Shown: positions 12,357-19,087, counted from the first letter of the stretch. The stretch: DNA of 64,000 nt from Thermoanaerobaculia bacterium (GCA_022826745.1 JAJDUI010000008.1:267283-331282), one strand, 5' to 3'. A program made the numbers and translations. Notes: generated from the letters alone by a model not told the origin.

Positions 12357-15300
12357 CTAGAGGACGCCGAGGCGGCTGAACAAGCAGTGGACGTAGTTGG
12401 GGTCGTCCCTCTGGAACAGAACGTGACGTTCGGCCAGGTCCTGCCGGCTGAGCGCGCGCCCATCAACCTGCCAGCGTTCGTCCAGATCCTTGAGGCGAGT
12501 GACGGAGACGATGAACGACTCGAGGCGAGCGCGGCTGTCCGACAGCCGCTCTTCGACCTCCTTGATCGTTGTGCTGAGAAGGACCTTCGGGTCGTCCGGC
12601 CCCGATAGGTGCACCAGACCCTTCGGGTCTACGAAGGCGATGTGCTGGCGGCCGTCGCGGAGCGCCCACAGGATGAAGTCGGGGTGGAAGTTGTTCGCCT
12701 CGAAAAAGCCGATGCCGCGCCCCCGACTCTGGTTGCGCATGAGGTGGATGCGGATTCCTGCGAGTGCGGCCGCCTGCTGCTGGAGGAAGTCCTGCAGGTC
12801 GCGGACGAAGCGGTACTCGCCTTCGTTCAGTGTGGGCGGCGAGACCCGGAGCTTGTCGTTCTCGACTGACAGCAGGGGCCAGTACAGGTGCTCGTTCAGA
12901 CGAAGCGCCCTGACCTGGTGCCTGTCCCAATCGGAGAGCCTCCCTTGCTCGATCGCCCGCTTCAGATCGGCGAGACTCTGTTCGAGATCGCCGACGTCGC
13001 TGGTGCCAGCCGTTGAGGCAACCTCGACGAAGAAGCCCTGGCCGCCGCGCCCGCCGGTCACTTGGAGGTTCGGGTCGTCGTCGCGTAGCGGCTGAATCTC
13101 CAAGTGCCGGGCTTCCCAAGCCTGGCGACAAAGGGCGTAGTAGCGAGCGGTGTACTTCCTGAGCAGGGAACCGGCGATCTCCTGCCAGTGGCGGACGTTG
13201 GACCAGTTGTCGTGCTCGAACAGGGTTGCGGGCGCCTGGAGCCGGTACCAGGAGGGGTCGGCAAGCAGTTGGCGGATCGCAGTACGCGACACGGTCAGGT
13301 TGTGCCAGCCGCGTTCCGTCTTGAAACGCGCGAGATCGAAGAAAAGTGCCTCCTGATCGATGAGGCGGATGTGGTCGCGGTCCAAGGTCGCCTCATTCTT
13401 CGAGATGACCTCGGCACTGGAGTCGACGGAGGCGAGCGTTCGCACCTTGGGGTTCCAGTCGAGGCGGACTGCCGGATGAAGCCGGTTCCTGATCGGGCAC
13501 GGCGCCTGAGCGGGTGGGCCAAGGACGGGCATCGGGCCGCGGCGGCGGAAGGCTGCCTCGGGTTCGGCGCCGGCTACGTCCTCGGCAAGTCTGATCGTCT
13601 CGAGCGGGGGGTCGTGCGGCAGGGCTTGTCGTTGAACCGGAAGGAAGAACTCCTCGCGGTCGGCGGCAACTCCCTCCTGTTCCAGGAAGTCACGGAACTG
13701 CGCCATGTAGTTCGCCCGGATGCCGAACACCTGGAGCGTTTCCAGATGCGGCAGCGCCGCGGGCGCCTCGCTAGCGACGTTTGGGAGCGCCGAACTCCGC
13801 TTGAGAGTCATATCGCGACCCTTCAGTCGGACGCCGCGGCCGAACATCTGGATGATCTGGGCGCCTTCGGTCCTACCGACGTTCATCAGGCCCATCGAAC
13901 TGACGCGCCAGCTGTTCCAGCCTTCCGTGAACTTCCGGGCGCCGACGACGAGGTGGATGTGAGAGTCCGCGGACTGGACGTCGTCGAAGGCCGACTCCGA
14001 GAACACCCGCTCGGTCACGACGATGCCAGCGTCCCGGCAGCGCTTGGCGAGCTTCCCTCCGTCGCCGACGTTGATCACGCCGAACGGTTCGTTCTCTCCG
14101 AGCCGAAGCGTTAGTTCCCCACCGGTCCCCTTGAGACGTTCGACTCGGAGACCGCCGCCTCCCGGTGCATTGAAGGTCTTGGAGAGCGTTTCACTGAAGA
14201 TGCTCCCGGCATTCATGCCCGAGTTCTGAAGGGGAGCGAACTGATCGGCGAACAGGTTCCTGCCGCCGGTGGTCTCGAGTCCGTGTTCCAGTAGGGCCTG
14301 GATGCTCGTCGTACTGGCGCTTGCGTTCTGGACGTACTCGTCGAGGAACTGGACGATCCGAACCACATCGGATGCATCGTCCTGGTTCAGGCCCTTCGTG
14401 ACCCGGCTTCCGACAAACACCCACAACGGCCGCTCGATGGCCCAGGGGCCGAGCGCTCTTCCTTCACGGCTGTAGAGCCACTGCTGCTGAAAGAAGGCGA
14501 GCAGGGCCGCGGTCAGGTAGCGCTGCTGCCAGTCGGCGTCGTGGTGGCCCTCGAGGTTGGCGATCCGGTAGTCCTTGCCGTAGCCGTCGCCGTGAAACCA
14601 GCGGTACGAGTAGTCGAACAGAATCGACCGGGCGTACGTGTTGGTCAGTTTCCGGTCCTTGTCCACCGCCTGGCCGAAGGTCGCCGAGTACTCGAACGAG
14701 AACCCACGCTCGCAGAGTTCGTCGCGCCTTCGCATCCACTGGCCCTGTTGGCCCGAGGAGGCGCCGCGGTGTCCTTCGTCGACGAGCACGAGGTTGTTGC
14801 CCTCGAAGGCGGCCACGGCGACTCTCTTCTCCCCCATCTCGTCGTGCAGCTTGTGTACGTCGAGCACTTCGACCCAGGCGCCGGGGAGGGCGTTCCGGTC
14901 GAACGGGCGCGCCGCGATACCGGCGACTTCGAACTCGTCCAGGTGCTGGCGAGAGAGGCCTTCGTTCGGGGTCAAGAGAATGATGCGGTTCAACGCATGA
15001 TGTCGATCGTGCCGCCCGAGGAACTCCCGGAAGAGAAGGAGGTGGGCATGCATGAGCAGCGTCTTGCCGCTTCCAGTAGCCATCCAGAACGCCAGCTTGT
15101 TCAGCAGGTTCGCGGCGTCCCGATCGGTCGTGGGCTCGGCGGTCGGTTCGATGCGGTCGCCTTTCGGGAGGTCCCGGTTCAGGGACTGAATCGCCGTGTT
15201 CAGTTCGGCGAGCAGCCGCTTCGGATCACGGAACCAGAGGTCCAGGTAGATGTCCGTTGCCAGTAGCGCCAGGTACTGGAAGTAGAGCCACCGGATCGGG

Positions 15301-18700: not shown

Positions 18701-19087
18701 GCTGATGAAGTCGCCGTCCTTGTAGTAGCGCCGGAAGAAGCGGTAGAGGTGGTCGTAGACGTCGGCCTCGACAGCGTCGAGATCGCCAGCTTGCGCTCGC
18801 TTCGCCTTCAGTTCCTTCACCTTGTCCGTGGCGTCGGGGTCCACGCCCAGCGATCTCGCCTGATCGGTTGCCTCTTGGAGTTCCCGTTCGATCTGGGCCC
18901 GGTCCACCGAGACGTACTCCTCGAGTGCCGCTCGCACCTGTGGCAGGAGCTCGTTCTCGAGGAAGCCCGTCACCTCGGCGCTCCGTGCGTGCATGATCCG
19001 GTAGAACCCAAAGTCGAGTTCAGGCTTGTCGAGCTGGAACAGCTCCTTGAGGAGCGTGACGAGCTTGTTGAAGCGCTCGCTCGTCAC
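15728..19087 (-). CDS. Type III-like Mod DNA methyltransferase (beta-class N6A/N4C), unusually large (1119 aa), with a ~470-aa N-terminal extension of unknown function
   Basis: Motif IV VYIDPPYNS precedes motif I LDYFAGSGTT, which is beta-class order. GTG start. Contains the in-frame C17 tract encoding PPPPPP. Confidence 0.7.
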   Translation of the reverse strand: MTSERFNKLVTLLKELFQLDKPELDFGFYRIMHARSAEVTGFLENELLPQVRAALEEYVSVDRAQIERELQEATDQARSLGVDPDATDKVKELKAKRAQAGDLDAVEADVYDHLYRFFRRYYKDGDFISQRVYKDGVYAIPYQGEEVKLHWANADQYYIKTDEYLRNYSFRLRPDGETDPMRVHFRLADAAEGEHGNVKAADDRKRVFVLANGDFAVDEPGERGTSELVLRFEYRPATMNDWPESEQPGKSKAPNQKSLLDIAEARIFKSGVTEPHLRRWTAALERKHVKRNGERSETSRLRTHLDRYTARNTFDYFIHKDLGGFLRRELDFYIKNEVMRLDDIENDTAPRAEQYLSKIRAIRRIAGTIIDFLASLEDFQKRLWLKKKFVVETSYCIRVGCIPDEFLPEIAANDTQRREWVDLCGIDEIESELTTPGYSEPLSVEFLRSQPTLMVDTRHFTRDFRDSLLKLGEHAVLDEATSGSLIHGENLQALRLLQHRYSSQVECVYIDPPYNSAASSILYKNDYQHSSWLALMADRLRLSGTYLTKQGVLGCAIDENELAHLLAALKHSLPAHDPQVVMVHHYPGSGSGRGNVSYTHEYYVAAVPSGESVLVGSRRPGGTRKRNFRRSGQGENNFRSGRHRSFFAILVDPATLEIVGMEKPPPRDSTYPEEPTEQGWLRIYPIGSDGSERVWSRNYTSSKRLWLDGRLECSDQYAINHSIDDEGRKVLVSAWLDSKFNSVVHGTNLVADIMGEKAAFPYPKSVHTVRTAIDSVMGDHAGASVLDYFAGSGTTGHAVINLNREDGGDRRFILVEMGEHFDTVLLPRLKKVTYSPEWKDGKPVRQATAEEAERSPSVMKVIRLESYEDTLNNLRHLNAETGDLERTASGDSPSNPQQAGSPPPPPPTILSHASPGTPSDGRSGNQVLRYLLDVDIRPGGSLLDVERFADPTAYTLRIKRPGADESRETPVDLLETFNWLLGLRVSRLWAPREVAAEFERDSEGRLRLKSGLDEAAGGPWWFRAVEGLLPDDRRGLIIWRKRPGGDETRGIEQDNLVLDEWFRAQGWAGPDVPGGGGFDLVYANGDHNLQNLRPAGFTWTAHLIEEHFMRLMFEDDEPS
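16368..16384. repeat. Homopolymeric G17 tract (C17 on the coding strand of mod), in frame as PPPPPP
   Basis: Counted directly: ggg + gggggggggg + gggg between ...aattgtc and tgagcc. The ORF-track translation GSPPPPPPTIL is consistent with 17 nt. Confidence 0.85.

What the first reader, a model, noticed from the sequence alone, without database searches (positions are those of the whole stretch)
12357..19087. Oversized Type III-like R-M pair: 1119-aa beta-class Mod with a ~470-aa uncharacterised N-terminal domain, plus helicase-nuclease Res
The gene order mod then res (adjacent or 4-nt overlapping), the beta-class motif order (DPPY before FxGxGTT), and a Res with SF2 motifs I/II/VI plus a C-terminal PD..D-x-K all indicate Type III. 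The Mod, however, is almost twice the usual size. Its first ~470 residues (FGFYRIMHARSAEVTGFLENELLPQV..., a coiled-coil-like acidic stretch, FDYFIHKDLGGFLRRELDFYIKNEV...) carry no motif I can assign. Such an extension could be a second target-recognition or regulatory module, or could mark a distinct Mod-dependent defence family.
Basis: partly seen in the sequence, partly recalled or inferred. Interest (0 to 1): 0.6.

Follow-up and report, generated by a model that had tools for sequence, protein, structure and literature searches.

The report
Phase-variable long-form Type III restriction system
The two big genes are a real restriction-modification pair of a widespread, already catalogued "long" Type III-like family; its extra Mod domains remain of unknown fold and function. 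What stands out is a 17-base poly-C run inside the methylase gene, which very probably switches the enzyme's last domain on and off at random.

Summary
Window 15728-19087 (-) encodes a 1119-aa beta-class Mod (DPPY 511, FAGSGTT 789). Downstream lies a Res with SF2 helicase motifs and a PD...DxK nuclease motif. Res most likely starts at ATG 15596 (1079 aa), so a 131-nt spacer, not a 4-nt overlap, separates the genes.

The size is not exceptional. PADLOC has REBASE-style Type III profiles of this length (MTase_III PDLC03646, 1057 positions, E=6e-203; REase_III PDLC03654, E=1e-189). Full-length relatives occur in at least 508 species across many phyla and on Klebsiella and E. coli plasmids.

The N-terminal 470 aa and a 190-aa C-terminal domain (CTD) match no Pfam family or PDB fold. 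The N-domain stays conserved while the central TRD is swapped, so it is not a second specificity module.

It sits in the linker before the CTD. Relatives carry C10 to C27, G10, G12 or (AG)24 at the same spot, in and out of frame, with the CTD intact. About 145 other family members have none.

Best reading: a phase-variable Type III-like R-M system. About 60% of relatives also carry an upstream SNF2 gene, which is absent here.

The parts
15728..19087 (-). mod gene, 1119 aa (GTG start), long-form Type III-like beta-class N6-adenine methyltransferase
17678..19087 (-). Mod N-terminal domain, residues 1-470. It is family-specific, has no Pfam, PDB-sequence or Foldseek-PDB match, and includes a long helical hairpin plus mixed alpha/beta subdomains.
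16418..17677 (-). Mod methyltransferase core, residues 471-890 (DPPY 511-514, FAGSGTT 789-795, ESYEDTLNNL 865-874)
16853..17362 (-). Central variable region, residues about 576-745, the presumed target-recognition domain; it is swapped between otherwise similar backbones.
   Evidence: 13-22% identity to P0007/P0009/P0010 versus 68-79% in the N-domain and 72-76% in the CTD
16368..16384 (-). Homopolymeric C17 tract (G17 on the + strand) in the linker between the MTase core and the CTD; it encodes PPPPPP and is the candidate phase-variation switch.
15731..16297 (-). Mod C-terminal domain (CTD), residues 931-1119. It is a compact alpha/beta domain specific to this family with no fold match, and it is lost when the tract goes out of frame.
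15597..15727 (-). mod-res spacer of 131 nt containing a weak terminator-like hairpin (15688-15703)
12357..15596 (-). res gene, 1079 aa from ATG 15596, a helicase-nuclease
13827..15074 (-). Res SF2 helicase motifs (GSGKT 175-179, DEGH 273-276, SATF 304-307, QMFGRGVR 583-590)
12618..12683 (-). Res PD-(D/E)xK-type nuclease motif (P972-D973 ... D990-P-K992), invariant in homologues

Best explanation
This is a two-gene Type III-like restriction-modification system of a widespread 'long-form' family.

Mod is built as follows: a conserved 470-aa N-terminal domain; a beta-class N6-adenine methyltransferase core with a swappable central TRD that sets sequence specificity; a disordered linker; and a 190-aa C-terminal domain. 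Res is an SF2 (DEGH) ATPase/translocase with a C-terminal PD...DxK nuclease. By analogy with EcoP15I it would depend on Mod for site recognition and cut unmethylated foreign DNA (inferred).

In this lineage the linker carries a hypermutable C17 tract. Slipped-strand mispairing changes its length. Lengths of 14, 17, 20 or 23 give full-length Mod. Any other length truncates Mod at about 944 or 1002 aa, removing the CTD and ending translation 480-660 nt before res. The system is therefore switched stochastically and reversibly between states, as in a contingency locus.

Shown: the anatomy, family membership, tract uniqueness, position-specific SSRs in relatives, and natural in-frame and out-of-frame alleles. 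Inferred: the actual switching, and what the truncated state does.

The two extra Mod domains are most plausibly a family-specific scaffold or coupling module for the motor subunit(s) rather than specificity elements. This is an inference from their conservation pattern.
For: Family and type:
- PADLOC MTase_III PDLC03646 scores E=5.6e-203 and REase_III PDLC03654 scores E=9.5e-190.
- A Mod profile hits the solved Type III Mods Mbo45V (5.9e-44), H. pylori Mod (1.2e-40) and EcoP15I Mod (1.9e-35) over positions 475-813 only.
- Pfam ResIII scores above its cut-off. The Res helicase and nuclease motifs have invariant key residues.
- Sources name relatives 'type III restriction endonuclease subunit R'.
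- mod and res are adjacent in nearly all of 80 genomic loci.
- The TRD swap on a conserved N-domain/CTD backbone mirrors classical Type III mod allele structure.

Switch:
- G17 at 16368-16384 is the only homopolymer of 8 or more in 64 kb, with about 0.001 expected.
- The same linker carries C21, C21, C27, C13, G12, G10 and (AG)24 in relatives L001-L004, L058, L072 and L060. L163 has C10 and L165 has C26.
- 65 other genomic loci and 79 metagenome loci have no run or repeat there.
- The SSR loci form two neighbouring clades.
- ON alleles: the window, L002, P0008 and P0009. L001's tract is also in frame, but its mod has a nonsense codon upstream. OFF alleles: L003, L004, L058, L060, L072, L081, L163, L165 and P0101. 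The CTD remains open and conserved in the OFF alleles.
- Two pairs of near-identical assemblies have their only indel at the tract. The window versus L081 shows 0 mismatches and 1 gap in 15,009 nt. L003 versus L165 is C27 versus C26, with two further substitutions, in 9,451 nt.
- The tract meets the published criterion for phase-variable Type III mod genes, a mononucleotide run of 9 or more; 17.4% of REBASE mod genes have SSRs (PMC5909438).
Against: - No read-level or experimental evidence of switching exists. All tract lengths come from assemblies, and both long-read and short-read methods miscall long homopolymers. Some 'OFF' states, and the single-base differences between near-identical records, may be technical.
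- A poly-Pro, poly-Gly or (Arg-Glu)-type run in a disordered linker could partly reflect tolerated low complexity.
- A Res profile does not detect EcoP15I Res or any PDB chain, so mechanistic transfer from EcoP15I is by architecture, not close homology.
- No methylation motif or cleavage activity is known for any member, as far as the held literature shows.
- Most relatives carry an extra SNF2 gene, so the family may not behave as a plain Type III enzyme.
Confidence: 0.6

Rival explanations
1. This is a constitutive, ordinary Type III-like R-M pair. The poly-C run is a neutral poly-proline linker expansion, and the frame differences between records are homopolymer sequencing or assembly errors with no biological role.
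For: The tract lies in a disordered linker: pLDDT is below 50 for the first 32 residues of the CTD model. Many relatives come from long-read MAG assemblies. The difference between the window and L081 is an odd inserted A inside the run, which looks technical. Contigs L163 and L164 start only about 150-265 nt upstream of the tract.
Against: - Three different repeat types (C, G, AG) sit at the same position in different lineages.
- Tract lengths reach 27.
- About 145 other family members have nothing comparable, nor does the rest of the 64-kb window.
- OFF alleles also occur in short-read assemblies (L004, L058).
- A run of 17-27 C is mechanically unstable whether or not it is selected for.
Confidence: 0.2
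2. The switch controls restriction only. Out-of-frame tracts yield a truncated Mod that still methylates, because all catalytic motifs and the TRD are retained. It can no longer support Res, either because the CTD is the Res-coupling element or through polarity on res. Cells then toggle between R+M+ and R-M+ without risking self-restriction.
For: - The SSR lies downstream of every methyltransferase motif (DPPY 511, FAGSGTT 789, ESYEDTLNNL 865-874). This differs from the 5'-proximal repeats that I recall, from my own knowledge, for classical phasevarions.
- The CTD is found only in this family's PADLOC profile.
- res is intact in the window, L001-L004 and L072. By my recollection, res genes linked to classical phasevarions are often degenerate; this was not checked here.
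- Premature termination occurs 480-660 nt before res.
Against: There is no evidence that a truncated Mod carrying a 42-100-aa out-of-frame tail folds, dimerises or is active. No fold match suggests a CTD function. A CTD-Res contact was not tested.
Confidence: 0.15
3. The pair is not a bona fide R-M system but a reduced form of a distinct three-component, methylation-linked defence system (SNF2 ATPase + long Mod + helicase-nuclease). In that system the N-domain and CTD would be sensor or coupling modules.
For: About 50 of 80 relatives have an SNF2 gene on the same strand upstream of mod, often ending less than 100 nt before it. It matches PADLOC DrmD PDLC02619 at E=2.5e-196 and Pfam SNF2-rel_dom + Helicase_C. 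A Res profile finds no classical Res in the PDB. The N-domain and CTD are unknown modules.
Against: The window, its 64-kb surroundings and the whole SSR clade lack the SNF2 gene, yet they keep intact and conserved mod and res. The Mod core is clearly a Type III Mod homologue. PADLOC files both proteins as Type III. TRD swapping is the R-M hallmark.
Confidence: 0.1
4. The N-terminal 470 aa is a second target-recognition or DNA-specificity module.
For: It is large, unannotated and attached to a DNA methyltransferase.
Against: It is among the most conserved parts of the protein, with many invariant positions across phyla. It stays 68-79% identical when the central TRD falls to 13-22%. Specificity modules vary; this one does not.
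Confidence: 0.03

Closest known systems
Classical Type III R-M enzymes (EcoP15I, EcoP1I; solved Mods 4ZCF, 6K0W, 7DSU)
   Same: mod precedes res. Mod is a beta-class N6-adenine MTase with a central TRD. Res is an SF2 ATPase plus a C-terminal PD-(D/E)xK nuclease. The Mod core is detectably homologous (profile E 1e-35 to 1e-44).
   Different: Mod is about 1100 aa versus 530-710 aa. It has an extra 470-aa N-domain and a 190-aa CTD with no counterpart in solved structures. Res is not detectably similar in sequence to EcoP15I Res. Most family members add an SNF2 gene.
Long-form Type III family in PADLOC/REBASE-derived profiles (MTase_III PDLC03646 + REase_III PDLC03654), e.g. E. coli plasmid pEC316_2 WP_004197497 / WP_004197500
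   Same: The domain architecture matches end to end. The plasmid Mod matches the profile over 1-1044 and its Res over 5-1117. The window proteins match at E about 1e-200.
   Different: The plasmid version is a four-gene unit, HTH - SNF2 - Mod - Res. The window has only Mod and Res, and adds the poly-C tract. N-domain identity is about 42%.
Phase-variable Type III mod genes (phasevarions: modA, modB, modH etc.; survey PMC5909438)
   Same: There is a simple-sequence repeat inside the mod ORF that exceeds the survey's length threshold. Tract length differs between strains, and both in-frame and out-of-frame alleles exist.
   Different: The hosts are free-living, high-GC Acidobacteriota and Gemmatimonadota rather than host-adapted pathogens. 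The repeat lies about 80% of the way into the gene, after all MTase motifs, so only a terminal accessory domain is lost. res is intact.
DISARM class 1 / ARMADA (SNF2 helicase + adenine methylase + helicase-nuclease)
   Same: In relatives, a DrmD/BrxHII-like SNF2 gene accompanies a methylase and a large helicase-nuclease.
   Different: According to the ARMADA preprint, the ARMADA methylase ArmB, and the class 1 DISARM methylase it is compared with, are PglX-like (ArmB has an NPPW motif). Their helicases are YprA/DUF1998 proteins (bioRxiv 10.1101/2025.09.15.676423; PMC13463889). Here Mod is beta-class N6_N4 and Res has no DUF1998. The window has no SNF2 gene.

Membership tests
Type III restriction-modification | Two co-oriented genes, mod upstream of res | tested here: met
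   mod is at 15728-19087 (-) and res at 12357-15596 (-), 131 nt apart. The same order holds in relatives.
Type III restriction-modification | Mod is a beta-class N6-adenine MTase (motif IV DPPY, then TRD, then motif I FxGxG) | tested here: met
   DPPY is at 511-514 and FAGSGTT at 789-795. Pfam N6_N4_Mtase scores 62 bits against a cut-off of 26.7.
Type III restriction-modification | Mod homologous to characterised Type III Mods | tested here: met
   Single-sequence search: 6K0W 1.8e-23, 7DSU 3.4e-18, 4ZCF 1.1e-14. Profile search: 5.9e-44 to 1.9e-35.
Type III restriction-modification | Res carries SF2 helicase motifs (Walker A, DEAH-type box, motif VI) | tested here: met
   GSGKT, DEGH, SATF and QxFGRGxR are present with invariant key residues. 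Pfam ResIII scores 30.3 bits against a cut-off of 22.5.
Type III restriction-modification | Res has a C-terminal PD-(D/E)xK nuclease | tested here: met
   P972-D973 ... D990-P-K992 is invariant in 37 homologues. This rests on the motif only; no nuclease profile or fold was matched.
Type III restriction-modification | Res homologous to a characterised Type III Res (EcoP15I) | tested here: not met
   Neither phmmer nor a 37-sequence profile finds any PDB chain, including 4ZCF Res. PADLOC REase_III PDLC03654 does match. The relation to classical Res is therefore at the level of architecture and superfamily.
Type III restriction-modification | ATP-dependent cleavage needing two inversely oriented unmethylated sites; hemimethylation by Mod | not testable with these tools
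   This needs biochemistry or methylome data.
Long-form Type III family (PADLOC PDLC03646 / PDLC03654) | Full-length match of Mod (N-domain + MTase + CTD) and Res to the family profiles | tested here: met
   Mod 5-879 matches at E=5.6e-203, and the CTD matches separately at E=4.5e-10. Res 364-1119 matches at E=9.5e-190, and Res 1-200 at E=2.9e-22.
Phase-variable mod gene (phasevarion-type contingency locus) | SSR within the ORF above threshold (mononucleotide run of 9 or more) | tested here: met
   C17 lies at 16368-16384 inside mod. The threshold is taken from PMC5909438.
Phase-variable mod gene (phasevarion-type contingency locus) | Tract length differs between strains, giving ON and OFF reading frames | tested here: met
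   C10, about C11, C13, C17, C21, C26 and C27 are seen, plus G10, G12 and (AG)24, both in and out of frame. Caveat: all lengths come from assemblies.
Phase-variable mod gene (phasevarion-type contingency locus) | Reversible high-frequency switching of expression and of methylation within a clone | not testable with these tools
   This needs reads, fragment analysis or culture work.
DISARM class 1 / ARMADA | SNF2 (DrmD/ArmA) partner, PglX-like methylase, YprA/DUF1998 helicase | tested here: not met
   There is no SNF2 homologue in the 64-kb window. Mod is N6_N4 beta-class. Res has no DUF1998.

The most novel reading that the evidence does not exclude
The repeat tract is placed after the whole methyltransferase so that slippage removes only the family-specific C-terminal domain. 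This would create a 'safe' phase switch that turns restriction off while host methylation continues (R+M+ to R-M+). It would let free-living soil and sediment bacteria open and close the gate to foreign DNA without self-restriction. It would also imply that the CTD, possibly together with the N-domain, is the element that couples Mod to the Res motor.
Probability: 0.15. Interest if true: 0.65.

Novelty: new variant of a known kind. Interest (0 to 1): 0.42.

Why it matters
The pair itself is an ordinary member of a catalogued family, so the 'oversized Mod' should not be treated as a discovery. Three points are useful nonetheless.

1. A large and widespread Type III-like family carries two conserved domains, about 660 aa in all. 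They have no family, fold or function assigned, and I found no characterised member. It is found in at least 508 species and on clinical Enterobacteriaceae plasmids.

2. In most genomes the family is a three-gene unit with an SNF2 ATPase. This suggests a mechanism that goes beyond the EcoP15I paradigm.

3. In Acidobacteriota and Gemmatimonadota a hypermutable repeat has been installed, with three different repeat types, precisely at the hinge before the last domain. That extends SSR-driven phase variation of R-M systems to high-GC environmental phyla. It also offers a natural experiment on what the C-terminal domain does.

Tried and rejected
- Pfam, NCBIfam and PHROGs scans of whole proteins and of sub-domains found only the MTase core and ResIII. 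There was nothing for the N-domain, the CTD, the Res N-terminus or the Res C-terminal half.
- PDB sequence searches with single sequences and profiles found the Mod core only and nothing for Res.
- The AlphaFold model of the N-domain (pLDDT 71.8, pTM 0.49) had a best Foldseek-PDB hit of E=0.56, which is noise.
- The CTD model (pLDDT 78.9, pTM 0.77) gave TM scores of about 0.2 against PDB and BFVD, which is also noise.
- A PD-(D/E)xK reading of N-domain residues D126/E146/K148 was rejected. K148 is not in the list of at least 90%-conserved positions, and the plasmid homologue has 'EEVMLHW' there.
- ARMADA and DISARM membership was rejected on methylase class and helicase type.
- A sigma-70 promoter and terminator scan of 12000-19500 found nothing above shuffled expectation. 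The idea that the tract tunes an internal promoter therefore has no support.
- A pattern search for tract variants in JGI metagenomes found no match. The CTD-based metagenome scan returned only distant relatives of 62% identity or less, which served as a negative control.
- The CTD protein search returned mostly short fragments because of candidate selection. It cannot be used to estimate how often mod is split.
- Literature searches for the family, its accessions or an SNF2 + N6_N4 + ResIII triad found nothing specific.
- REBASE itself could not be queried.
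Full report
**Observation.**
- Both have the third-position GC bias of real genes in this roughly 69% GC genome, but lower than their neighbours (GC3 0.81-0.83 versus about 0.90). The region is a GC trough of 0.62-0.65. This points to an acquired island between a PLP-dependent enzyme/ABC-transporter block and an MFS transporter gene.
- Mod carries DPPY at 511-514 and FAGSGTT at 789-795, the beta-class order. Pfam N6_N4_Mtase spans 505-821.
- Res carries GSGKT, DEGH, SATF and QMFGRGVR, plus a C-terminal P972-D973 ... 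D990-P-K992 motif. The key residues of each motif are invariant in a 37-sequence alignment.
- One correction is needed. Homologues are 1077-1099 aa, and a 96%-identical protein is 1079 aa. Res therefore starts at ATG 15596, leaving a 131-nt spacer rather than a 4-nt overlap.

**Is the size unusual?** No.
- PADLOC, whose R-M models are labelled by R-M type, has a Type III methyltransferase profile of 1057 positions. It matches Mod residues 5-879 at E=5.6e-203. A Type III restriction-enzyme profile of 1154 positions matches Res at E=9.5e-190. The other MTase_III profiles that matched are 465-816 positions long, so this is a distinct long form that is already catalogued.
- All 8000 scored candidates in the 5.8-billion-protein search were significant. 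The best 120 were mostly 1050-1150 aa and 52-65% identical. The few that carry a taxon name are from Gemmatimonadota, Nitrospiraceae, Gammaproteobacteria and Sulfuritalea.
- The N-terminal 470 aa alone found 2547 cluster representatives at 50% identity (953 at E<=1e-30). The match lies at or near the N-terminus of the protein; the complete ones are about 1000-1150 aa.
- A scan of one genome per species confirmed 508 relatives.
- The family is also on 27 plasmids, including Klebsiella, E. coli and Citrobacter plasmids, 12 of them typed as conjugative. It is absent from the phage collection.
- Sources call the proteins 'DNA methyltransferase' and 'type III restriction endonuclease subunit R / DEAD/DEAH box helicase'.

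**What are the extra Mod domains?** There are two, not one.
- The N-domain covers residues 1-470. A C-terminal domain (CTD, about 931-1119) follows a disordered linker.
- Neither has a Pfam hit even at E<=5 or any PDB sequence relative by profile search. Only positions 475-813 match, to Mbo45V, an H. pylori Mod and EcoP15I Mod.
- The AlphaFold model of the N-domain is moderate (pLDDT 71.8, pTM 0.49). It shows a long helical hairpin (36-122) followed by mixed beta and helical parts. The most conserved stretches (124-152 and 191-202) are modelled with low confidence. Foldseek found nothing in the PDB (best E=0.56).
- The CTD models well (residues 33-206 mostly above 90 pLDDT, pTM 0.77). It still has no PDB or viral fold match.
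- A shorter version of the N-domain is shared with one other PADLOC Type III Mod family of 816 positions. The CTD is unique to this family.
- Domain-by-domain identity shows that the N-domain and CTD behave as a conserved backbone while the central region 576-745 is exchanged. Against P0007, P0009 and P0010 the N-domain is 68-79% identical and the CTD 72-76%, but the centre is only 13-22%. P0002 and P0005 share the centre (66-67%) on a more distant backbone.
- This is the allele structure of classical Type III mod genes. It argues against the N-domain being a second specificity module.

On the coding strand, mod contains 17 consecutive C (window 16368-16384, encoding PPPPPP at about residues 902-907) in the linker just before the CTD.
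- It is the only homopolymer of 8 or more in the 64-kb window, with about 0.001 expected for this length. No other simple repeat of note exists in the window.
- A public scaffold (L081) is identical to the window over 15,009 nt except for one inserted base inside this run. That insertion shifts the frame and gives a 1002-aa product.
- In the 80 genomic relatives I located the N-domain, MTase, CTD and Res by tblastn and examined the MTase-CTD linker. The repeats found there were:

| Locus | Host or relation | Repeat in linker | Frame state |
|---|---|---|---|
| Window | this sequence | C17 | in frame |
| L081 | identical scaffold | C3-A-C14 | out of frame |
| L001 | Ca. Multivorans, 92% identical N-domain | C21 | in frame, but nonsense codon 99 upstream |
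| L002 | Acidobacteriota relative | C21 | in frame |
| L003 | Acidobacteriota relative | C27 | out of frame |
| L004 | Acidobacteriota relative | C13 | out of frame |
| L058 | Gemmatimonadota | G12 | out of frame |
| L072 | Gemmatimonadota | G10 | out of frame |
| L060 | Vicinamibacteria | (AG)24 | out of frame |

- All 65 other loci with a measurable linker have no run longer than 6 there, apart from L028, whose G8 run and frameshift lie inside the CTD coding region rather than in the linker. 79 further metagenomic relatives have none either.
- More alleles came from other records. L163/L164, 94% identical in the CTD, have C10 and are out of frame. L165 has C26 and is 99.97% identical to L003 (C27), with its only indel at the tract. 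P0101 is a shorter-tract out-of-frame protein. P0008 and P0009 are in frame with PPPP.
- In every out-of-frame locus the CTD reading frame is still open and conserved over its whole length. That is expected for recent, reversible shifts and not for decaying pseudogenes.
- The repeat-bearing genes form two neighbouring clades on a tree of N-domain plus CTD, one with poly-C and one with poly-G or (AG)n.
- Modelling the window tract shows that C14, C17, C20 and C23 give full-length Mod. The other lengths stop at about 944 or about 1002 aa. All methyltransferase motifs and the TRD are kept, the CTD is lost, and translation ends 480-660 nt before res.

**How it most likely works.** The anatomy supports a Type III-like mechanism. 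Mod recognises and methylates a short asymmetric site through its central TRD. Res, an ATP-driven SF2 motor with a PD...DxK nuclease, depends on Mod and cuts unmethylated DNA. These steps are inferred from architecture and from Mod-core homology to EcoP15I-type enzymes.

On top of that, the linker repeat is a textbook contingency locus. [quoted passage not shown] What is shown is the hypermutable sequence, its position-specific recurrence with different repeat units, and natural ON and OFF alleles. What is inferred is switching within a population and its phenotype.

Because the repeat lies after the whole methyltransferase, the OFF product could still methylate while being unable to support restriction. 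I rate this attractive reading at about 15%. The plainer alternative is that the truncated protein is inactive and the system behaves as a classical ON/OFF phase-variable R-M system.

The main caveat is that homopolymer lengths in assemblies are error-prone. Read-level data are needed.

**Family context that changes the picture.**
- In about 50 of the 80 relatives a roughly 990-aa SNF2 ATPase gene lies on the same strand upstream of mod, often ending less than 100 nt before it. On E. coli plasmid pEC316_2 the unit is HTH - SNF2 (987 aa) - Mod (1046 aa) - Res (1120 aa).
- The SNF2 protein matches PADLOC's DrmD model at E=2.5e-196 and Pfam SNF2-rel_dom + Helicase_C.
- This is not DISARM or ARMADA. 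According to the ARMADA papers, those systems use a PglX-like methylase and a YprA/DUF1998 helicase. It does mean that the long-form 'Type III' family is usually a three-component system. I found no description of it in the searchable literature.
- The window, its 64 kb and the whole repeat-bearing clade lack the SNF2 gene.
- About 22 relatives have unrelated genes inserted between mod and res, including a recurring roughly 370-aa ORF that I read as Fic-like from its sequence (not scanned).

**Membership.** As Type III, gene order, Mod class, Mod homology, the Res helicase motifs and the Res nuclease motif are all met. Sequence homology of Res to a characterised Res is not met: a Res profile finds nothing in the PDB. 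Enzymology is untestable here. I therefore file the pair as 'Type III-like, long-form family' rather than as an EcoP15I-type enzyme.

**Verdict.** The 'oversized' Mod is a common, catalogued form whose extra domains are conserved but still unexplained. The interesting feature is the repeat-controlled hinge before the C-terminal domain. Novelty: a new variant of known kinds (Type III-like R-M; SSR phase variation). Interest is moderate.

Noticed in passing
window 19359-19706 (+) and 19699-20817 (+): A gene pair is divergently transcribed next to mod. The first gene encodes a 115-aa protein that, from my reading of its sequence, resembles a HigB/RelE-type toxin; it has no profile hit. It overlaps a 372-aa HTH_3 + Peptidase_M78 (ImmA/IrrE) protein that matches PADLOC PD-Lambda-2_B at E=6e-33. 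The peptidase gene lies near the R-M genes in L002-L004 and the full pair in L003 and L004, so it co-travels in this clade only.
   Followed up: partly
L082 4977-7940 (E. coli plasmid pEC316_2) and about 50 of loci L007-L080, upstream of mod: A DrmD/BrxHII-like SNF2 ATPase gene precedes the long mod in about 60% of relatives, giving an SNF2-Mod-Res triad that I could not find described. It is absent from the window.
   Followed up: partly
L005, L006, L023, L056 (about 7000-10001): In a gammaproteobacterial sub-clade the gene ending exactly at the mod start is a different partner. In L023 it is a 1027-aa TPR-repeat protein rather than SNF2.
   Followed up: no
about 22 loci, between mod and res (e.g. 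L009 13276-14391, L062, L063, L070; L078 13232-15028; L038 13315-15027): Unrelated genes are inserted between mod and res. Judged by eye from their N-terminal sequences and not scanned, they include a recurring roughly 370-aa Fic-like ORF, a DUF262-like protein, an AAA-ATPase-like protein and AlbA_2-like proteins.
   Followed up: no
L166 about 4455-4465 (ENA ctg836501, 2.3 Mb): A relative without any repeat has an in-frame TAA stop in the same linker ('...DDPEA*GADGLREQ...'). This splits Mod into 897-aa and 179-aa products. It is another natural uncoupling of the CTD, or a pseudogene.
   Followed up: no
L001 codon 99 of mod (about 10295-10297): The closest genomic relative (Ca. Multivorans sp., OZ242040) has a CAA-to-TAA nonsense codon in the N-domain although its C21 tract is in frame. 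This is either inactivation or a sequencing error.
   Followed up: no
L163 1-200 and L164 1-90: In a 94%-identical strain the contig shows unrelated sequence immediately upstream of '...MKVIRLESYED'. Most of mod may therefore be deleted, leaving linker + CTD + res, or the assembly may be chimeric or broken near the tract.
   Followed up: no
P0008 versus P0009, just after the PPPP run: Two related Mods read 'RISRENNQTPGRHEH' and 'GFLEKTTKTPGRHEH' after the tract. This looks like the same DNA in shifted frames, restored by a second indel downstream, which hints at past tract slippage with compensation. DNA was not examined.
   Followed up: no
L023 4347-4362: A second long homopolymer (C16) lies in a different large ORF upstream of the R-M genes in a gammaproteobacterial MAG. 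It may be another contingency gene in the same island.
   Followed up: no
window 15688-15703 (-): A weak terminator-like hairpin (TCCCGCAGGCACGGGA + TTTCTTC) lies in the mod-res spacer. It is within chance expectation for the region.
   Followed up: no
window 6647-9171 (+): Two tandem paralogous genes, about 60-70% alike by eye and with my reading of them as periplasmic solute-binding proteins, sit within the ABC-transporter block flanking the island. They are unrelated to the finding.
   Followed up: no
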